From Sphyrna mokarran (lineage: Eukaryota), in contig JAGIQG010000011.1 in the NCBI GenBank assembly GCA_024679065.1, forward strand, positions 68,758,001 through 68,822,000: 64,000 nucleotides of DNA, in the 5' to 3' direction. The translations under genes were made by a program, and so were the position numbers. Below the pieces are notes generated by a model. That model ran no database searches. It had not been told where the DNA came from and saw nothing but the letters and a program-made list of their open reading frames with translations. This document shows, piece by piece, positions 1 to 62,884 of this stretch; position 1 is the first letter of the stretch, and every line of letters begins with the position of its first letter.

Positions 1-112
1 AGAAACCCATGCAGACACGGGGGGAACATAAAGACAGTGATCTGAGGCTGGAATTAAACCCCAGGATCCTGGCACTGTGAGGCAGCAGTGCTAATCACTG
101 TGCCACTGTGCC
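1..112 (-). mobile_element. HE1/V-SINE, 5' tRNA-derived head (continues beyond window start)
   Basis: Reverse complement reads GGCACAGTGGCACAGTGATTAGCACTGCTGCCTCACAG...GGTTTAATTCC (A/B boxes), followed by V-domain sequence. Confidence 0.85.
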
Positions 113-170: not shown

Positions 171-478
171 AGAATCATCATAGGATCTCTACAGTACAGA
201 AGGAGGCCATTTGGTCCACTGAGTCTGCACTGACCGCAATCTCATCCAAACCCTATTCCCACAACTCCATGCATTTTAACCTGCTATTCCCCCTGACACT
301 AACAGACAATTTAGCATGGCCAATCAACCTAATCTGCACATCTTTGGACTGTGGAGGAAACCGGAGCACCCGGTGTAAACTCACTCAGACAGGGGGAGAA
401 TATGCAAACTCTACACCGACAGTGACACAAGCTGGATTTGAACCTGAGACCTTGGCACTGTGAGGCAGCAGTTCTGCC
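171..478 (-). mobile_element. HE1/V-SINE, near full length
   Basis: tRNA-like head, V domain (ggaggaaaccggagcacccgg on +) and CR1-derived 3' tail (cagtacagaaggaggccatt on +). Confidence 0.9.
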
Positions 479-3739: not shown

Positions 3740-4365
3740 AAGATCCCCTCTAATTCTTTGAAAATCAATGAATATAAGCTCAACCTGTTCAACTATTCCT
3801 TGCAAAGCAAATCCCTCATCCCAGGAATCAGACCAGTAACCTAATCTGAACTATTTCCAATGCAAGTATGTCCTTTCTTGAGTAAAGTGCCAAACTGTCT
3901 GCAATACTCCACAGGGTGGCAGGTGGCACAATGGTTCGCAACGCTGCCTCACAGTGCCAGGGACCCATGTTTGATTGCGGGCTTGGCACATATCTACGTG
4001 GAGTTTGTATGTTCGCCCTGTGTCTGCGTGGGTTTTCTCTGAGTGCTTTGGTTTCCTCCTACAGCCAGAAAGATATGTTGGTTAATGCTCAATTGGCCAT
4101 GCTAAATTTTCCCACGGTGTGCCTGAACAGGTGTCAGTTGATGGCAACTAGGGCATTTTCACAGTAACATCATTATAGCGTAAATGTAAGCGTACTTATG
4201 ACTAATAAATAAACTTATTTAACTTTTTTTGGATGGCCACATCAGTATCCTGTGGAGCTGTAGCAAGCTGTCTCCATCTTTCACTCTTCTAAACTTCCTG
4301 CCAAACCGACAAGCTCACATATTCCCACATTTAACTCCATTTGCCAAATGTTCATCCATTTACTG
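3740..4365 (-). mobile_element. Old CR1 LINE (continuation of 1315-1689), interrupted by SINE 3915-4222
   Basis: Decayed ORF2 on minus, e.g. SKWMNIWQMELNVGICE in ORF 4281-4484. Confidence 0.65.
3915..4222 (+). mobile_element. V-SINE with alternative 3' tail
   Basis: tRNA head plus V domain, then gcattttcacagtaac...gtaag...tgactaataaataaactt instead of the CR1 tail. Confidence 0.85.
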
Positions 4366-7427: not shown

Positions 7428-7755
7428 TCATAGAATCATAGAATTCTACAATGCAGAAGGAGGCCATTCAGCCCATCAAGTCTGCACCGACCACATTCCC
7501 ATCAAAGCCCTATCAGCATAATCTCATGCATTTATCCTATTTGTCCCCTGACACAAAAAAGGCAACTTAGCAGGCCAATCCACCTAACCTGCACATCTTT
7601 GGACTGTGGGAGGAAACCAGAGCACTCGGAGAAAATCCACACAGACACCGGCAGAATGTGCAAACTTCACAGAGGCAGTGACCCAAAGCCAAGAATCAAA
7701 CTCAGGCCCCTGGCACTGTGAGGCAGCAGTGCTAACTACTGTGCCACTGTGGCAT
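7428..7755 (-). mobile_element. HE1/V-SINE, full length
   Basis: catagaatcatagaa tail, V domain and tRNA head. Confidence 0.92.
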
Positions 7756-21721: not shown

Positions 21722-22185
21722 ATGACACAGTGGTTAGCACTGCTGCCTCACACAGTGCCAGGACTCAGGTTCAGCTCCTGGCTTCGGTGACTGTGCATTT
21801 GGGTTTTGCACGTACTTCTCGTATCTGTGAGGGTTTCCTCCGAATGCTCTGGTTTCCTCCCACAGTACAAAGATGTGAAGGTTAGGTTGATTAAACATGA
21901 TAAATCACCCCATAGTGTCAGGAGGACTAACAGGGTAAATATGTGGAGTTAAGGAGGGGTATAGGACCTGGATGGGATTGTAGTCAATACAGACATTTGT
22001 GCTGAATGACCTCCCTCTGCACTGTAGGGATTCTATGATTGTATTCTAAGAAAGACATGCTGATTAGATCCTAAATTCTCTCTCAGTGTACCCACACAGA
22101 CGCTGGAATGTCGTGATTGAGGGATTTTCACAGTAACTTCATTGCAGTGTTAATGTAAACCAATTTGTGACTAATAAATAAATTT
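21722..22185 (+). mobile_element. HE1/V-SINE (21722-22040) followed by an alternative-tail SINE fragment (22052-22185)
   Basis: Head, V domain and ctgtagggattctatg tail, then attttcacagtaacttcattgcagtgttaatgtaa...tgactaataaataaa. Confidence 0.85.
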
Positions 22186-35967: not shown

Positions 35968-36410
35968 GGGGTGGTGTGGCACCATGGTTAACACTGCTGC
36001 CACAGTGCCAGAGACCCAGGTTCAATTCCTGGCTTGGGTCACTGTCTGCGTGAAGTTTGCACGTTATGACATAGAACATAGAACAGTAGAGCACAGTACA
36101 GGTTCTTTGGCCCTCGATGTTGTGCGAAACTATGTCCGAACCCAAGATCAAGCTATCCTACTCCCTATCATTCGGATGTGTTCCATGTGCCTATCCTGTG
36201 TCTGCGTGGGTTTCCTTCAGATGCTCCAGTTTCCGCCCACACACCAAAGATGTGCAGGTTGGGCTGATTGGCCATGCTGGAATGAAACTGGTGTCAGGGG
36301 GATTGGTAGGGGAAATGTGTGGGTTATGGGAAAAGAGCCTAGGTGGGATTGTGATTGGTGCAGACTATATGGGCTGAATGGCCTGCTTCTGCACTGTAGG
36401 ATTCTATGAT
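35968..36410 (+). mobile_element. HE1/V-SINE interrupted by a minus-strand CR1 3' end (36068-36195)
   Basis: V domain split at gtttgcacgtt|...|cctgtgtctgcgtggg by acatagaacatagaacag... Confidence 0.88.
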
Positions 36411-42007: not shown

Positions 42008-42430
42008 ATAAATCCCTACTGTACAGAAGGAGGTCATTTGGCCTCTACTGACCACACTCTGACCCAGGCCCTATTCCTGTAATCCTACATATTTACTGTG
42101 CCAATCCCTGACACTAAGGGTCAATTTAATACGGCCAATCAACCTAACTCACACATCTTTGGATTGTGGGAAGAAACCAGAGTGCCTGGAAGAAACCCAC
42201 ACAGTCACAGGCAGAATGTGCAAACTCTACACCCAAGGCGGAATTTTCCCATCTGGCCTGCTACAAGAATTGTACAGGCAGGACACAGACCACGCAAAGA
42301 TCTGTTGATGGGATTTTCCGGCCTTGGAGCAAGTGTGGCTAGAAAGTCCCATCCCGACAGTCATCTAAGTCTGGAATTAAACCCAGTTCTCTAGCACTAT
42401 TGCCTCACAGCACCAACCGCTCTGCCACCA
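42008..42430 (-). mobile_element. HE1/V-SINE interrupted by a family A MITE (42237-42355)
   Basis: SINE sequence caaactctacac|gacagtca split by ggcggaattttccc...aaagtcccatccc. Confidence 0.85.
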
Positions 42431-55849: not shown

Positions 55850-56960
55850 CTTTCTCCAAGGATCCTTCCTTTATCTTGGTTTTTCAATTTCCATTTATTC
55901 TCACAATGCAAGCATTCTCTTCCATATCAGTAGAAGATATTTCTTCTTTTTTGCTCAATCAAGAACGTCCCACTACTATAATTTACCTGGGCTTCAACCT
56001 TATCTGTTTATTTCCAGCACCACTCCAAACCCTTTCTTCTGGAATCACCCTTTCATCCTCACCTTCAACTCTGCCAACTTCCAAGTTTCATGTATAATCA
56101 TCCATTTCTAACAGTTCCTGTAATGTACTAACAGACTCATTTGTTCCTCCCCTTCCAGTACTCTGAAGGGGCCATTCCCCTCTGTCACATCCTGGTTTAC
56201 TCTTCTATTATCCTTAGCATTCCTTCATTTCCCAATGTACCTGCTCAAATGCAAGTGATGCAATATCTCCCTGCTTCTCACCATCTCTTCAATTCAACAT
56301 TTTTAAATCATAATCATTGTGTTCATTTCCCTGGACAGCGGGAGTCATTGTTCAATGCTCATTTAGATCTTCTCTCAACTCATATTTTGATATTTTTTTC
56401 CAAAACCTTCTTTTGCTCTGTAACATCATCCCATTCAGTCATTTAATTATTCCTGTTCTTCATGATATCATTTTCCTTGTTCTTTCTTCCACAGACCCTA
56501 TCCATGAAATCCCTGGCTCTATATTTGCTTACAGAGATTTCACAGTGTCACATTGGGTAACACTGCTGCACAGCGCTGGGGACCCAGGTTCGATTCCCAG
56601 CTTGAGTCACTGTCTGTGTGAGCTTGCACTTTCTTCCTGTATCTGCTTGGGTTTCCTACGGGTATCCGGTTTTCTCCCACATTCCAGAAGACATACTGGT
56701 TAGGTGCATTGGCCATACTAAATTCTCCTGAACAGAGGTGCTGAAGTGTGACGACTAGATGATTTTCACAATAACTTCATTGCAGCGTTAATGTAAGCAT
56801 GCTTGTGACACTAATCAATAAACCTAAATTTATAAACTGTTAAATCACTAATTTCTTCTATTTCTGACTTAATGGTTATTGCTCTGCAAGATGAATTCTG
56901 CTTTTCTCTCCACAGGTGCTTTCTGACCTGCTGAACATTTCCACCATTTTCTGTTGACCA
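55850..56960 (+). mobile_element. Decayed Penelope-like element 3' part, interrupted by SINE 56540-56830
   Basis: ISSFLLNQ, PFILTFN and IIIHF remnants typical of the PLE RT-EN linker; terminal repeat ctctccacaggtgct..ctgacctgctga. Confidence 0.55.
56540..56830 (+). mobile_element. V-SINE with alternative tail
   Basis: ggttcgattcc B box, V domain and ttttcacaataacttcattgcagcgttaatgtaag tail. Confidence 0.85.
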
Positions 56961-58692: not shown

Positions 58693-59015
58693 GGTATGGT
58701 GGCACAGAGGTTAGGACTGCAGCTTCACAGTGCCAGGGACCTGGGTTCAATTCTGGCCTTGGGTCACTGTCTGTGTGGAGTTTGCACATTCTCCTCATGT
58801 CTGAGTGAGTTTCCTCTGGGTGCTCTGGTTTCCTCCGACACTCCAAAGAGGTGCAGGTTAGGTTGATTGTCCATGATAAATTGACCCTTAGTGTCAGGAA
58901 GATTAGCAAGTTAAGTATGAGGAATTAAGGAGATAGGGTCTTGATAGGATTGTGGTTGGTGCAGAGTCGATGGGCCAAATGACCTTATTCTCTATTGTAA
59001 TGTTTCTATGATTCT
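58693..59015 (+). mobile_element. HE1/V-SINE, full length
   Basis: ggtggcacag head, gggttcaattc B box, V domain and CR1 tail. Confidence 0.9.
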
Positions 59016-59490: not shown

Positions 59491-62061
59491 ATCGTAACAG
59501 TCACTTCAGTCCAGTTTTCAGAACCTGCCTGCTTAGCAGCTAGGCAACCTGCTTATAGAAATGTTGTTCTGAAATTCAAAGCCGAGAGAAGAGTGAGCTT
59601 GGCCTGGTGAGAATGGCTTACACCTCAGTTTACACTGCTTGACTATATGAAGCTATGGTACATATTTCAAAAATGCCTGGTCCTAATCTGTCTTTAAGCA
59701 GCAGCTTGAAATCAAGAAATCGAAGTCTTGGGAAACATAACCAATAAATAACTTCATTTGGATTTGGAATAGGTGGAAATGTTACACGTTATCTCCTGTA
59801 CCTCCAGCCTGTTCAGCTGACAGACTCAAAAGTAATCCAACACTAGTGATAAAATTTATTTCAGCATTCATAAAAATGAAATTCTGCTTGTTATATGTCA
59901 CAACAGAAAAAACATTCATGGAGTTCGAACCATATGTTCAGTCTCAGGATACAGGTTAACAAAGTACTAATGGGGTTGACTTTTTCGAAGCCCAACAATT
60001 GGGTTACTGCTTTGCAGATCTTGAACATTCTATATCTTATAAATTGTTCTGTTGTGATACAAAACATTAAGGGTCATATTCAATTGGAACTGCTGGTGCC
60101 CTTAAAATGTTGTAATGGATGTTACTTTGCAAGAAATATCTTTTAATTGCTGCAACAGGTCAATGTAATTTTGCAAACAGGTTCAGGTATGAAGCAATTG
60201 CTGAAATGATGAAATAAAGGGTGCACGTTACATCTGGGATGGACACTCCAATTACCGTATCACATTTTCTGTTTTGAAACTATTGTAACGCCGGACTGGA
60301 TGTGTTAGTGAGATCTAACTAAACTATTGTAGAAAAATGAGCTTTAATAATTTGCTTTTGACACATGAAACCGACTGAGATTCTCCCCACAGAGCACTGG
60401 CTAGAATTACACTGAGGAAAAAACAGAACTTCCTTGCAAAGCAAATTGTAAAATGCATTACAAGTTTGGCAATAAAAGACATATTTCTATTTGCAAACTT
60501 GAGGATAGACTCGATCACTGACTGGCCAGAACAAACATTCCATTTGCCAATAATATGGTTTATTTTGAGTTTTAACACAGGAGTCCACGCAAAATTGATA
60601 TTTAAACATACTCTCGGAATTTTTAAATCTCAATTCCCTTCATGTGAGGTACAATAATAATATGTCATTCCTCTTTATTGTTTCACCATATGCTGTGTAA
60701 TTGATATTTATATTGCTGCTGAATCTCCTTTGGGTAAATGCAGAATTGACTAATGTTTAAACAAAGTATTTAATACTTTGCCCTCACCAGTAAGAAGCAA
60801 AGCAACTTTCCATTAATATTCCCTATCTAGCAATTTAACTTTTCTTTTTAAATTGGTGCCATCTGTCCAATACAGTAAGTTGCTCCTAAATATAGGTGCA
60901 TCAGAAATAAAACTTATCTTAACTGGATGAAGCAAAAATGATTAATGTATTTCTACATAGGGTTAATACTAGTTTGTGACAATCTTACTTTACCTATGAC
61001 TCGATGCCAGCAAAAGTATTACAAGTCACACTGAAAAGGCACATTCTGTCTCAGTTTTACTGATATTTACAAAAAGAACACGATAGATTCTAGAAAGCTG
61101 CACTAAAATGAGAAAGCATCAGAAATACTAGGCAGGTCATGCAACTTCCGTGGAGAGAAAAGCGAAGGTAGTGGCTTTTCTGGTGCTGTTTTCGGTGCTG
61201 GTGAGGACGGGGGGGCATCAGCTACGGAAGAAAGAAATCCCATAGGAGTCCTAAAATCTGGTTTACGCTAGCAGGATTTTCCATTCCATTCTCCCACACC
61301 TCCCTACCCCCTACCAATGACATGTTGGGAATCCGGGCATTGAATTTAGGATTCTGCATTTGAATATATTTAAATATTATTATTATTAAGCTTTTATGCC
61401 TTCCTCGCCCATTAGATTATCCATTTATGTTGGCACGAAGGCATGTTGACGTGAAATATGACAGATGCCCCACGACATGCACCTGGTGAGCAGAACACGC
61501 CAGAGGCCTGCAAGTGAGTACATTCCCCAGGATGGTTATGCCTGCTATTATCCCCTGGCATTACCCTCGGAACTGTCCCCAGGCATTGCCCCTGGCACTG
61601 CCAGCCCAAGCACTGCCCTCTGATTGACAGAAAGCTCAACTGCCTAACTGCGCTCTCAATTTGAGTCTGATGTTGTGGGACCTGCCCTTTAACTTTTCTT
61701 CCTTGCTAAAAAGTCAAAGGAAACCACAGGCAGCTTCTGTTAGGTTTTTCCCACTCACTGTGCAACTCTGCCTAAAAATGAAAACATTCCACCCAGTTTG
61801 AACAGCTGCACGGGTTCAGACAGCAATGAGACCAGAGACAACACACCACCTCCCTCAATGAGAAACATGTTGCAGGGAGGCCAGAGAATCCGCCCCCACC
61901 TCCGGCATTTCAGGACAGTTCATCAGAATTAGAATATGTCACAGCTATAAATGGTCCTCTAGATTAAACATTTTTTGTTTCCTCACTTGTCATATTATCA
62001 TCCCTTTTTATCTTGCACCATCATTTCTTTTGTCATTTAATTACCTCGTTTTCCACACTAG

Positions 62062-62494
62062 AACAAAGAACAAAACAGCACGGGAAACAGGCCCTTCGGC
62101 CCAACGAGCCCATGCCGCCACTCCGATGTTCCCACCTCTACCCGCGATCCCTGTCCATGTTTATAGATCTATGGATTAAAAACCAAATTTGAGACAATTT
62201 AGGGAGAATTTGTTTTGCCAATTAGCCTAAGAGCACATCTTTGGGATGTGGAGGAAACCGGAGCACCCGGAGAAAACCCACGCAAGCACGGGGAGAATGC
62301 GCAAACTCCCACAGACACAGGCCCAAATCCATGTATCTGCACAGCACAGCTATAGTCACTGTGCTGTCGTGTTGCCCATCAGATGGTCCAGGTCAAGCGT
62401 TCACTAACGACGTGAAGCAGTAGGATACTCTCGAAAAAGATCCAAGAGCAGTCCTCTCACGACCCATTGCGTGTATGCCCCTCGTTAGACAACA
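62062..62494 (-). mobile_element. Atypical young V-SINE with a ~120-nt structured 5' extension
   Basis: CR1-type tail (agaacaaagaacaaaacagcac on +), intact V domain, remodelled head, ACTAG duplicated at 62057-62061 and 62495-62499, many CpGs. Confidence 0.75.
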
Positions 62495-62884
62495 ACTAGT
62501 GTAAACCTTCTCATTTGTTCTTTTCTCCTGCACCCCCTTCTCTGCCTCTGTACTTGCTTAAAACCTAATATAAATCCATTTTGTCTGGTTTCAACCTGGA
62601 ATACCGTTTTCCCTGCATACTACAGTATATTTCCAACTTTGATTCTGCGACACCGATAAGTAATGCACGCGGTAGAAAAATTCTGTCACGTGATGATAGT
62701 GATACTGAGCAGAAAGCACTTGACTTGGGTTGGAACCCCTATTGAAAAGTTTTTTTTTTGACGGGGTTTTATTTCTGAGCTTTAATATTAAGAAGAGTCA
62801 ACAGTCCTCTCTCAAGTATCATAATTACATGATTGATCACCTCATTGTGTGTATCACTGTATGAAAATGTAAAGGGATTGCAAT

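What the first reader, a model, noticed from the sequence alone, without database searches (positions are those of the whole stretch)
62062..62494. V-SINE with a novel structured 5' RNA module in front of a decayed tRNA head
Seen: the insert is bounded by ACTAG/ACTAG inside an older repeat and is CpG-rich, so it is probably young. It has a CR1-type tail and a normal V domain. Its tRNA head has no B box and now forms a perfect 9-bp hairpin (62341-62349 with 62359-62367). About 120 extra nt lie upstream on the minus strand, absent from every other SINE here. They can fold into a three-way junction: 62404-62410 with 62482-62488 (7 bp perfect), extended by 62414-62419 with 62476-62481; a 14-bp stem 62422-62435 with 62441-62455 (one bulge); and a 4-bp stem 62458-62461 with 62470-62473. 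All five non-Watson-Crick positions are A.C on plus, i.e. G.U on minus, the SINE's transcribed strand. The module also contains U5, a Pol III terminator signal. Inference: a retrotransposed chimeric RNA whose 5' domain is an unrecognised structured RNA (ribozyme, small-RNA-derived head or Pol II leader) mobilised by CR1.
Basis: partly seen in the sequence, partly recalled or inferred. Interest (0 to 1): 0.75.

Follow-up and report, generated by a model that had tools for sequence, protein, structure and literature searches.

The report
Folded RNA module in LINE tail
The insert is not a new SINE but the cut-off tail end of an abundant CR1 jumping gene whose untranslated tail holds a promoter-dead SINE and, in front of it, a segment whose predicted RNA fold is kept across five families, likely because it helps the element's own RNA survive and be copied.

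Summary
The stems, the ACTAG duplication, the lost B box and the T5 run are there. The reading as a SINE with a new 5' head is wrong. The insert is a 5'-truncated copy of a CR1 LINE. 83 of 90 position-ordered copies run on upstream. One copy has an esterase ORF1 and an unbroken 991-aa endonuclease/RT frame. 0 of 30 copies start at the SINE head.

The 'module' lies mid-3' UTR. Five CR1 families share one block: a splice-acceptor-like CAG|G, the 132-134-nt module, a decayed tRNA head and the V domain. Hypervariable DNA flanks it.

The module's sequence drifts (68-90% identity), but 27 of 38 changed pairs stay paired, against 40% under neutral simulation (0 of 300 reached it). The conserved fold is a three-way junction with a long rod.

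Rfam gave no match. I found no cleavage pile-up and no recurrent spliced copies. Function is inferred: likely a cis-acting element for RNA stability or RNP assembly.

This scan has already noted the LINE-plus-V-SINE chimera many times elsewhere in this genome. My paper searches did not find it; Repbase and Dfam could not be searched.

The parts
62495..62499 (.). Target-site duplication ACTAG, copy at the element's 5' side
   Evidence: sequence; flank colinearity in L448
62378..62494 (-). Structured module of the CR1 3' UTR (positions 1-117). The full module starts 16 nt further 5', right after a CAG|G motif; those 16 nt are lost in this copy
62480..62494 (-). Remnant of the small conserved hairpin (module -2..4 with 9..15); its first three bases are truncated here
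   Evidence: 97% of cells paired
62396..62479 (-). Long conserved rod with internal loops (module 16-54 with 60-99). This copy breaks two pairs (G27A, T94A)
   Evidence: 34 pairs, 91% of cells paired, 4 with changes on both sides; one search gives another register for the middle part
62422..62455 (-).
62385..62390 (-). 3' strand (TGGACC) of the closing helix of the three-way junction; its partner GGTCCA is truncated in this copy
   Evidence: 100% paired, nearly invariant
62318..62377 (-). Decayed tRNA-derived V-SINE head: A box mutated, B box deleted; forms the hairpin 62341-62367 and the start of a second one; 34 of 58 letters match free V-SINEs, 85-98% identical among the five LINE families
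62201..62317 (-). V domain and following conserved block; 69 of 77 letters match free V-SINEs; 91-99% identical among the five families
62120..62200 (-). Hypervariable segment (35-81 nt among families)
62062..62119 (-). CR1 3' tail with terminal TTTGTTC-type repeats; 95-100% identical among the five families
62057..62061 (.). Target-site duplication ACTAG, copy at the element's 3' side
   Evidence: sequence

Best explanation
The insert is a 5'-truncated copy of an autonomous CR1 LINE, and the module is part of that LINE's 3' UTR, where a predicted three-way junction with a long rod likely acts in cis to keep the LINE's own long-tailed mRNA stable and competent for copying. Shown: the place of the module; the ORF1 esterase and ORF2 endonuclease/RT upstream; five families that share the block; retention of pairing while the sequence drifts. 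Inferred history: an ancestral CR1 took a V-SINE and about 130 nt of upstream sequence into its 3' UTR. The Pol III promoter decayed because the LINE's own transcript now carries it. Selection in the active lineages kept the fold of the module, two hairpins in the old head, the V domain and a pyrimidine tract ending in CAG|G. Inferred mechanism, untested: the tract, 19-159 nt behind the stop, and the folded domain bind host proteins that protect or export an RNA with a 3' UTR of about 400-600 nt. The window copy is a dead by-product of incomplete reverse transcription.
For: Module 20-mer: 3,298 exact hits; ORF2-end 20-mer: 20,007, and 29 of 30 of these run into the same UTR. 83 of 90 copies extend more than 6 nt upstream of the window's 5' end. 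0 of 30 copies anchored behind the V domain start at the head. L179: 991-aa frame with RVT_1 (E 6e-30) and endonuclease; upstream frame with GDSL esterase. Five families share the block between unalignable segments. Head and V are 85-99% identical among families, while fourfold sites of ORF2 between family 1 and the others are 62-66% identical. Alifold on five family rows, module plus head: -76.1 against -45.3 +/- 4.3 kcal/mol for column shuffles (0 of 200), SCI 0.94; reverse strand -49.5, without a shuffle control of its own. Neutral evolution along the same tree: 27 of 38 changed cells stay paired (0.71) against 0.40 +/- 0.09, 0 of 300; mean energy of the other four families -55.9 against -41.8, 0 of 300. 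On 12 real copies 93% of cells pair and 5 of 57 pairs change on both sides. Precedent for protection by a pyrimidine-tract binder near a stop codon: PMC4764554 (abstract and section list).
Against: No experiment and no RNA data. Changes on both sides alone are not significant: 29 of 300 simulations reach the 5 cells and 86 of 500 shuffles reach the 5 pairs. The five families are related and share one genome. The structure was derived from these same sequences. The middle of the rod has two registers. A single copy does not stand out on a blind grid. The module's letters are no more conserved than fourfold sites in three comparisons (78 vs 87, 79 vs 82, 90 vs 90%). Many CR1 copies in the same loci have a short tail without the block, so it is not needed for CR1 in general. 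Exchange of 3' UTRs between families could inflate the conservation; not tested. The invariant CAG|G is more than a protective tract needs.
Confidence: 0.68

Rival explanations
1. The CAG|G motif is a working 3' splice site, and the module is the structured start of a terminal exon. Splicing from a donor in the LINE would give a shorter RNA (for example ORF1 without ORF2) that sets the protein ratio or limits activity.
For: All five family rows keep a branch-point-like TTRAY, a pyrimidine tract and CAG|G, although the spacer varies from 19 to 159 nt and the letters on both sides of CAG|G vary (splice consensus recalled). The conserved block starts exactly there. One copy (L286) joins ORF2 at GAG|GT to the acceptor. 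One (L393) joins another CR1's ORF2 end there.
Against: Three genome-wide patterns for family 1 gave 174, 35 and 202 hits. In 110 loci read (50 of 174, 30 of 35, 30 of 202; some are the same place) no join recurred. Where both flanks could be read they often continued one older repeat, as insertions do. Both joins have 4-6 nt of microhomology, and the L393 join is single in the genome. The patterns cover 13 of 14 strong donors. Other families were not tested, and spliced RNA need not be retrotransposed.
Confidence: 0.15
2. The fold is a neutral passenger: captured structured DNA whose pairing persists through recent shared ancestry, UTR exchange between families, or template-switch repair of inverted repeats.
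For: Module identity is near the fourfold-site level in three comparisons. Few double changes. No peak on the blind grid.
Against: Changed positions keep pairing far above the neutral simulation. G.U pairs favour the sense strand (z -2.8 and -3.4 against -0.9 and -0.6), which DNA-level repair would not give. The module keeps its length (132-134 nt) while both neighbouring segments gain and lose up to 140 nt.
Confidence: 0.11
3. The module is a self-cleaving ribozyme or small-RNA precursor of an undescribed class that processes part of the LINE RNA.
For: Conserved three-way junction with a long rod. A CUGANGG-like stretch follows the closing helix in three of five family rows. 5' ends are about twice as dense from -65 to +48 as further upstream (24 in 114 nt against 15 in 195 nt).
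Against: No Rfam match over the module at E 5-10 in the window and six family copies. My descriptor scan, which had no positive control, found no HDV-like fold and no hammerhead core with GAAA on the sense strand. No sharp pile-up of 5' ends. Cleavage would part ORF2 from its tail, yet most copies read through. The junction strand is variable.
Confidence: 0.04
4. One reading: a non-autonomous SINE-like element whose 5' head is this structured RNA.
For: The window copy and a few others begin within about 3 nt of the same place (L025; 2 of 90; L066 by eye; 1 of 30).
Against: 83 of 90 copies run on upstream and 5' ends form a continuum. The window's 5' end cuts the conserved fold. No Pol III promoter is left.
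Confidence: 0.02

Closest known systems
Canonical CR1 LINEs with an esterase ORF1 (PMC13343379, passages seen); HER1 of sharks and rays (table row in PMC3747384)
   Same: Esterase ORF1, endonuclease/RT ORF2, conserved 3' tail with short repeats, 5' truncation, short target-site duplication.
   Different: A 3' UTR of about 400-600 nt with a conserved structured block. The survey has one hit each for 'UTR' and 'SINE' in its main text and the passages shown describe no such tail; its supplements and the HER1 sequence were not seen.
HE1 V-SINE of sharks and rays (PMC3747384 table row; PMC4824008 passages; the original paper was not held)
   Same: tRNA-like head, central V domain of about 80 bp, CR1-type tail. 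The label rests on recall of the V motif and on comparison with free SINE copies of this genome, not on a published consensus.
   Different: No working promoter, no free copies (0 of 30); it travels as part of a LINE mRNA.
MER6/MER6A, a mammalian Tc1/Mariner MITE with a headless V-SINE (PMC6887750, abstract and passages)
   Same: A V domain without its Pol III head is spread by another mobile element.
   Different: MER6 moves as DNA and is extinct, and the paper's passages show no selection on the V part. Here the carrier is an RNA-copied autonomous LINE and the V part is far more conserved than neutral sites.
Rous sarcoma virus RNA stability element and PTBP1 protection (PMC4764554, abstract and section list; PMC5580461, search listing)
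   Same: Works-like candidate: pyrimidine tract close behind a stop codon on a retroelement RNA with a long 3' UTR.
   Different: No sequence or structure comparison was made; binding and protection are untested; the motif here ends in an invariant CAG|G.
LINE-1 chimeras with Alu, small RNAs and exons; SVA (PMC13174262, passages)
   Same: LINE RNA joined to SINE or foreign RNA sequence.
   Different: The passages seen describe single insertions or non-autonomous composites. Here the chimera founded at least five coding families with tens of thousands of copies.

Membership tests
CR1 LINE | ORF2 with APE-type endonuclease and reverse transcriptase | tested here: met
   L179, 991-aa frame: PF03372, PF14529, PF00078
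CR1 LINE | Esterase-type ORF1 | tested here: met
   GDSL/OSK hits in L179 and L182; feature stated in PMC13343379
CR1 LINE | Variable 5' truncation, fixed 3' end with short repeats | tested here: met
CR1 LINE | RT phylogeny within CR1 rather than L2 | not tested
   No tree with reference elements was built; the clade call rests on the esterase ORF1, the tail and recalled ORF2 motifs
V-SINE (HE1-like) | Central V domain | tested here: met
   66-69 of 77 letters match the majority row of 14 free copies in this genome; no published consensus was compared
V-SINE (HE1-like) | tRNA-derived head with A and B boxes | tested here: not met
   A box mutated and B box deleted; no B-box motif in any of five family rows
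V-SINE (HE1-like) | Independent short unit with a defined 5' end | tested here: not met
   0 of 30 start at the head; 83 of 90 continue upstream of the module
Known self-cleaving ribozymes and other Rfam families | Match to a family covariance model | tested here: not met
   No hit over the module at E up to 10 or 5
Known self-cleaving ribozymes and other Rfam families | HDV-like double pseudoknot or hammerhead core | tested here: inconclusive
   Own descriptor scan negative but without positive control
Known self-cleaving ribozymes and other Rfam families | Site-specific self-cleavage | not testable with these tools
   Only indirect: no pile-up of 5' ends
Spliceosomal 3' splice site | Branch point, pyrimidine tract, YAG|G | tested here: met
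   Seen in all five family rows; consensus recalled, no scoring model run
Spliceosomal 3' splice site | Use in spliced RNA | tested here: inconclusive
   No recurrent spliced retrocopy in 110 loci of family 1; no RNA reads were laid
RSE-like stability element | PTBP1 binding near the stop and protection from decay | not testable with these tools
   Only the position of the tract, 19-159 nt from stop to CAG|G

The most novel reading that the evidence does not exclude
A CR1 lineage has domesticated a SINE and an upstream folded RNA into a new multi-part cis-element (splice acceptor, three-way junction, refolded tRNA head, V domain) that controls the fate of its RNA, possibly through a spliced subgenomic transcript as in some LTR elements. 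The V domain would then act without Pol III, and its function could be read out in a LINE retrotransposition assay.
Probability: 0.3. Interest if true: 0.8.

Novelty: new variant of a known kind. Interest (0 to 1): 0.52.

Why it matters
The function of the conserved central domains of SINE superfamilies is stated to be unknown (PMC4824008 abstract). Here an autonomous element with an unbroken ORF2 carries the V domain without its promoter and keeps it far better than neutral sites, so the domain can be deleted or swapped in a standard retrotransposition assay. The module in front of it is an RNA fold without a match in Rfam, with natural variants in five families that show which pairs matter. 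For annotation, short copies like this one will be miscalled as a new SINE.

Tried and rejected
Rfam scans: no hit over the module; the miRNA-like hits in L400 lie in an unrelated palindrome. ARAGORN: none. HDV-like registers, hammerhead and twister motifs were tried by eye from recalled consensus and by script and rejected.

A search for free SINEs with this head and an intact B box gave 10 hits, none with the module among the 7 read. A parent LINE with the same ORF2 end and a short tail was not found (29 of 30 carry the block). Coding potential of the module: by eye one frame is open for about 30 codons in three families but broken in family 1, with mostly replacement changes; rejected, no test run. 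Spliced retrocopies: see the first rival.

Other organisms. 17 runs hold half or more of the sampled words, under 8 coded organism labels and metagenomes. Of 4 runs laid, two raw-read runs gave 0 reads and two contig sets each held a 166-nt piece without differences across the ORF2 end, spacer and module start. Relatedness and contamination cannot be told, so I draw no conclusion on range. No RNA run was laid, so expression and splicing stay open.

Literature. Nine searches showed no title or abstract opening that describes a CR1 with a V-SINE or structured module in its 3' UTR. PMC5786205 (passages) did not either. Repbase, Dfam, the two original papers on HE1 and V-SINEs, and all supplements were not seen and may hold this consensus.

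Full report
Observation. The five stems, the five A.C positions, the T5 run and the ACTAG duplication are in the sequence as described. The host is an older repeat: both flanks lie in order in 2 of 6 homologous loci, and in L448 they overlap by about 5 bases. No other SINE copy in the window matches the module. The window copy folds at z -2.2. It differs from the majority of 120 copies at 9 positions, so it is young.

What it is. The 120 nt recur at 98% identity, and a 20-mer from them has 3,298 exact matches. In most copies the same sequence continues upstream. Of 90 copies taken in genome order (90 of the first 100 listed), 83 begin more than 6 nt upstream of the window copy's 5' end, 2 begin at -3 and -1, and 5 begin inside the module. 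One of the 83, L066, begins near +2 by eye. The upstream sequence is the end of a reverse transcriptase frame. Copy L179 is about 4.2 kb, with an unbroken 991-aa frame holding endonuclease and RT domains and an upstream GDSL-esterase frame; an esterase ORF1 marks canonical vertebrate CR1 (PMC13343379, passages). A 20-mer from the ORF2 end has 20,007 matches, and 29 of 30 read run into the same UTR; the other is inverted after the stop. A 20-mer behind the V domain has 29,735 matches. Of 30 read, 23 reach upstream of the module, 4 start in it, 3 start in the V domain and none at the SINE head. The insert is therefore an ordinary 5'-truncated LINE copy. That the host is a shark or ray is my inference from the repeats.

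The captured SINE. Against the majority row of 14 free V-type SINEs from these loci, the LINE's V domain matches at 69 of 77 letters and its head at 34 of 58, with the A box mutated and 18-19 nt around the B box deleted. One older copy (L345) still has a degenerate B-box stretch, which fits capture followed by loss. In the head hairpin three neighbouring pairs changed on both sides relative to the free SINE (GTG/CTC to ACA/TGT) and now all pair (read by eye). The names V-SINE and HE1 rest on recall and on PMC3747384 (table row) and PMC4824008 (passages); no published consensus was compared.

Five families. Divergent copies in the fetched loci led to four more CR1 families with the same block; one marker of family 4 has 4,143 matches. 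The majority rows rest on 27, 15, 5, 29 and 20 copies. Between families the spacer behind the stop is 19-159 nt and the segment behind V is 35-81 nt, both poorly alignable. The module is 132-134 nt at 68-90% identity, the head 85-98%, V 91-99% and the tail 95-100%. Fourfold sites in the ORF2 end are 62-66% identical between family 1 and the others and 74-90% among the others. So head, V and tail are conserved in sequence. The module is above the neutral yardstick for family 1 against families 2 and 2b (80 vs 62, 79 vs 66%) but not for family 4 against 2b and 2, or 2b against 2 (78 vs 87, 79 vs 82, 90 vs 90%). Of 355 profile hits reaching the module's 3' end, 353 were followed by head or V motifs (a sample biased by how the loci were fetched).

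The fold. Alifold on the five rows gives a three-way junction: a closing helix GGUCC/GGACC (-8..-3 with 105..110), a hairpin (-2..15) and a long rod (16-54 with 60-99), followed by two hairpins in the old head. Energy is -76.1 against -45.3 +/- 4.3 for 200 column shuffles, SCI 0.94; the reverse strand gives -49.5. On 12 real copies 93% of cells pair and 5 of 57 pairs change on both sides; the latter count is reached by 86 of 500 shuffles. The tool's own consensus keeps the outer helices and the apical stem but sets the middle of the rod in another register. As a control for relatedness I evolved the family-3 row along the module's own tree: 27 of 38 changed cells stay paired against 0.40 +/- 0.09, and the other families fold at -55.9 against -41.8 (0 of 300 each); double changes alone are reached by 29 of 300. 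It arose because this copy lacks the 5' strand of the closing helix and has two private changes in the rod. Against over-reading: on a blind 90-nt grid over L179 the module windows score -1.9 and +0.1, and the two sense peaks (-4.6) are an ORF2 window and the head. The case rests on comparison, not on one copy.

The splice-like motif. In all five rows the block starts right after a branch-point-like TTRAY, a pyrimidine tract and CAG|G (consensus recalled). In two families little more than this motif is left of the spacer. I looked for spliced retrocopies of family 1 with three patterns (174, 35 and 202 hits) that cover 13 of 14 strong donors, and read 110 loci. They were point changes, truncations, inversions or insertions into older repeats. 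Two joins fall at a GT, both with microhomology and neither recurrent; L393 was dropped by the filter, so its far flank was not read. Use in splicing is unproven.

How it most likely works. Shown: position, coding capacity of the carrier, conservation, retention of pairing. Inferred: selection acts on the RNA of active masters, since genomic copies are dead. The simplest role for a folded block and a pyrimidine tract just behind the stop of an intronless RNA with a long 3' UTR is protection or export and RNP assembly; PTBP1 bound near a stop shields long 3' UTRs from decay (PMC4764554, abstract and section list). Recognition by ORF2 itself is expected at the terminal stem-loop (PMC4176376, abstract and section list). 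I put 0.68 on a cis-acting role of this kind, 0.15 on functional splicing, 0.11 on a passenger, 0.04 on a new ribozyme or small RNA and 0.02 on a free SINE.

Known and new. The carrier is a CR1 LINE by every feature tested. The V part fails membership as a SINE but descends from one. The nearest precedent is MER6, a DNA element with a headless V-SINE (PMC6887750, abstract and passages). Rfam has no match. Nine paper searches showed no description of this tail; Repbase, Dfam, the original HE1 papers and supplements were not seen. Earlier notes of this scan report the same chimera on other DNA of this genome (36 and 68 notes fit the look-ups, 8 shown each), while a look-up by sequence found nothing. 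I reached my reading before those look-ups, and they are not independent support. What this report tests itself is the five-family comparison of the module, the neutral control and the negative search for spliced copies.

Verdict. First reading: partly supported. New variant of a known kind; interest 0.52.

Noticed in passing
L345 (reverse strand, near 2543 in that orientation): An older module-bearing CR1 copy keeps a degenerate B-box stretch in the head that the five families have lost; a possible earlier stage of the chimera.
   Followed up: partly
L179, ORF2, about 2,940 nt upstream of the module: A 90-nt window in the endonuclease region folds at z -4.6 on the sense strand only; perhaps another cis-element near the ORF1/ORF2 boundary.
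   Followed up: no
L286 (G000:C783, near 1103523): A copy in which ORF2 is joined at GAG|GT exactly to the splice-like motif, about 1.5 kb missing; splice product or 6-nt microhomology deletion.
   Followed up: partly
L393 (G000:C335, near 758195): The ORF2 end of another CR1 family is joined to the same motif at a point where a homologous copy continues with GTAAG (L306); single in the genome.
   Followed up: partly
window 319-421, 652-737, 7591-7697, 21791-21877, 36195-36272, 42134-42227, 58759-58869 and 4000-4113, 56611-56728: Two types of free V-SINE occur in the window: one with a CR1-like tail, one with a different tail ending in AATAAA-like sequence.
   Followed up: partly
L425-L444: Family 4 ends in a run of A rather than the TTTGTTC repeats of its four sister families.
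   Followed up: no
L400:240-352: A long near-perfect palindrome that scores weakly against several miRNA models; probably a small DNA element.
   Followed up: no
module positions -65 to +48 in 90 copies: 5' ends are about twice as dense here as further upstream, which could reflect stalling of reverse transcription at the fold or T-rich microhomology; the second sample is too small to confirm it.
   Followed up: partly
window 62052-62066 and 62495-62505: The empty site reads ACACTAGTGT, a short palindrome centred on the duplicated bases.
   Followed up: no
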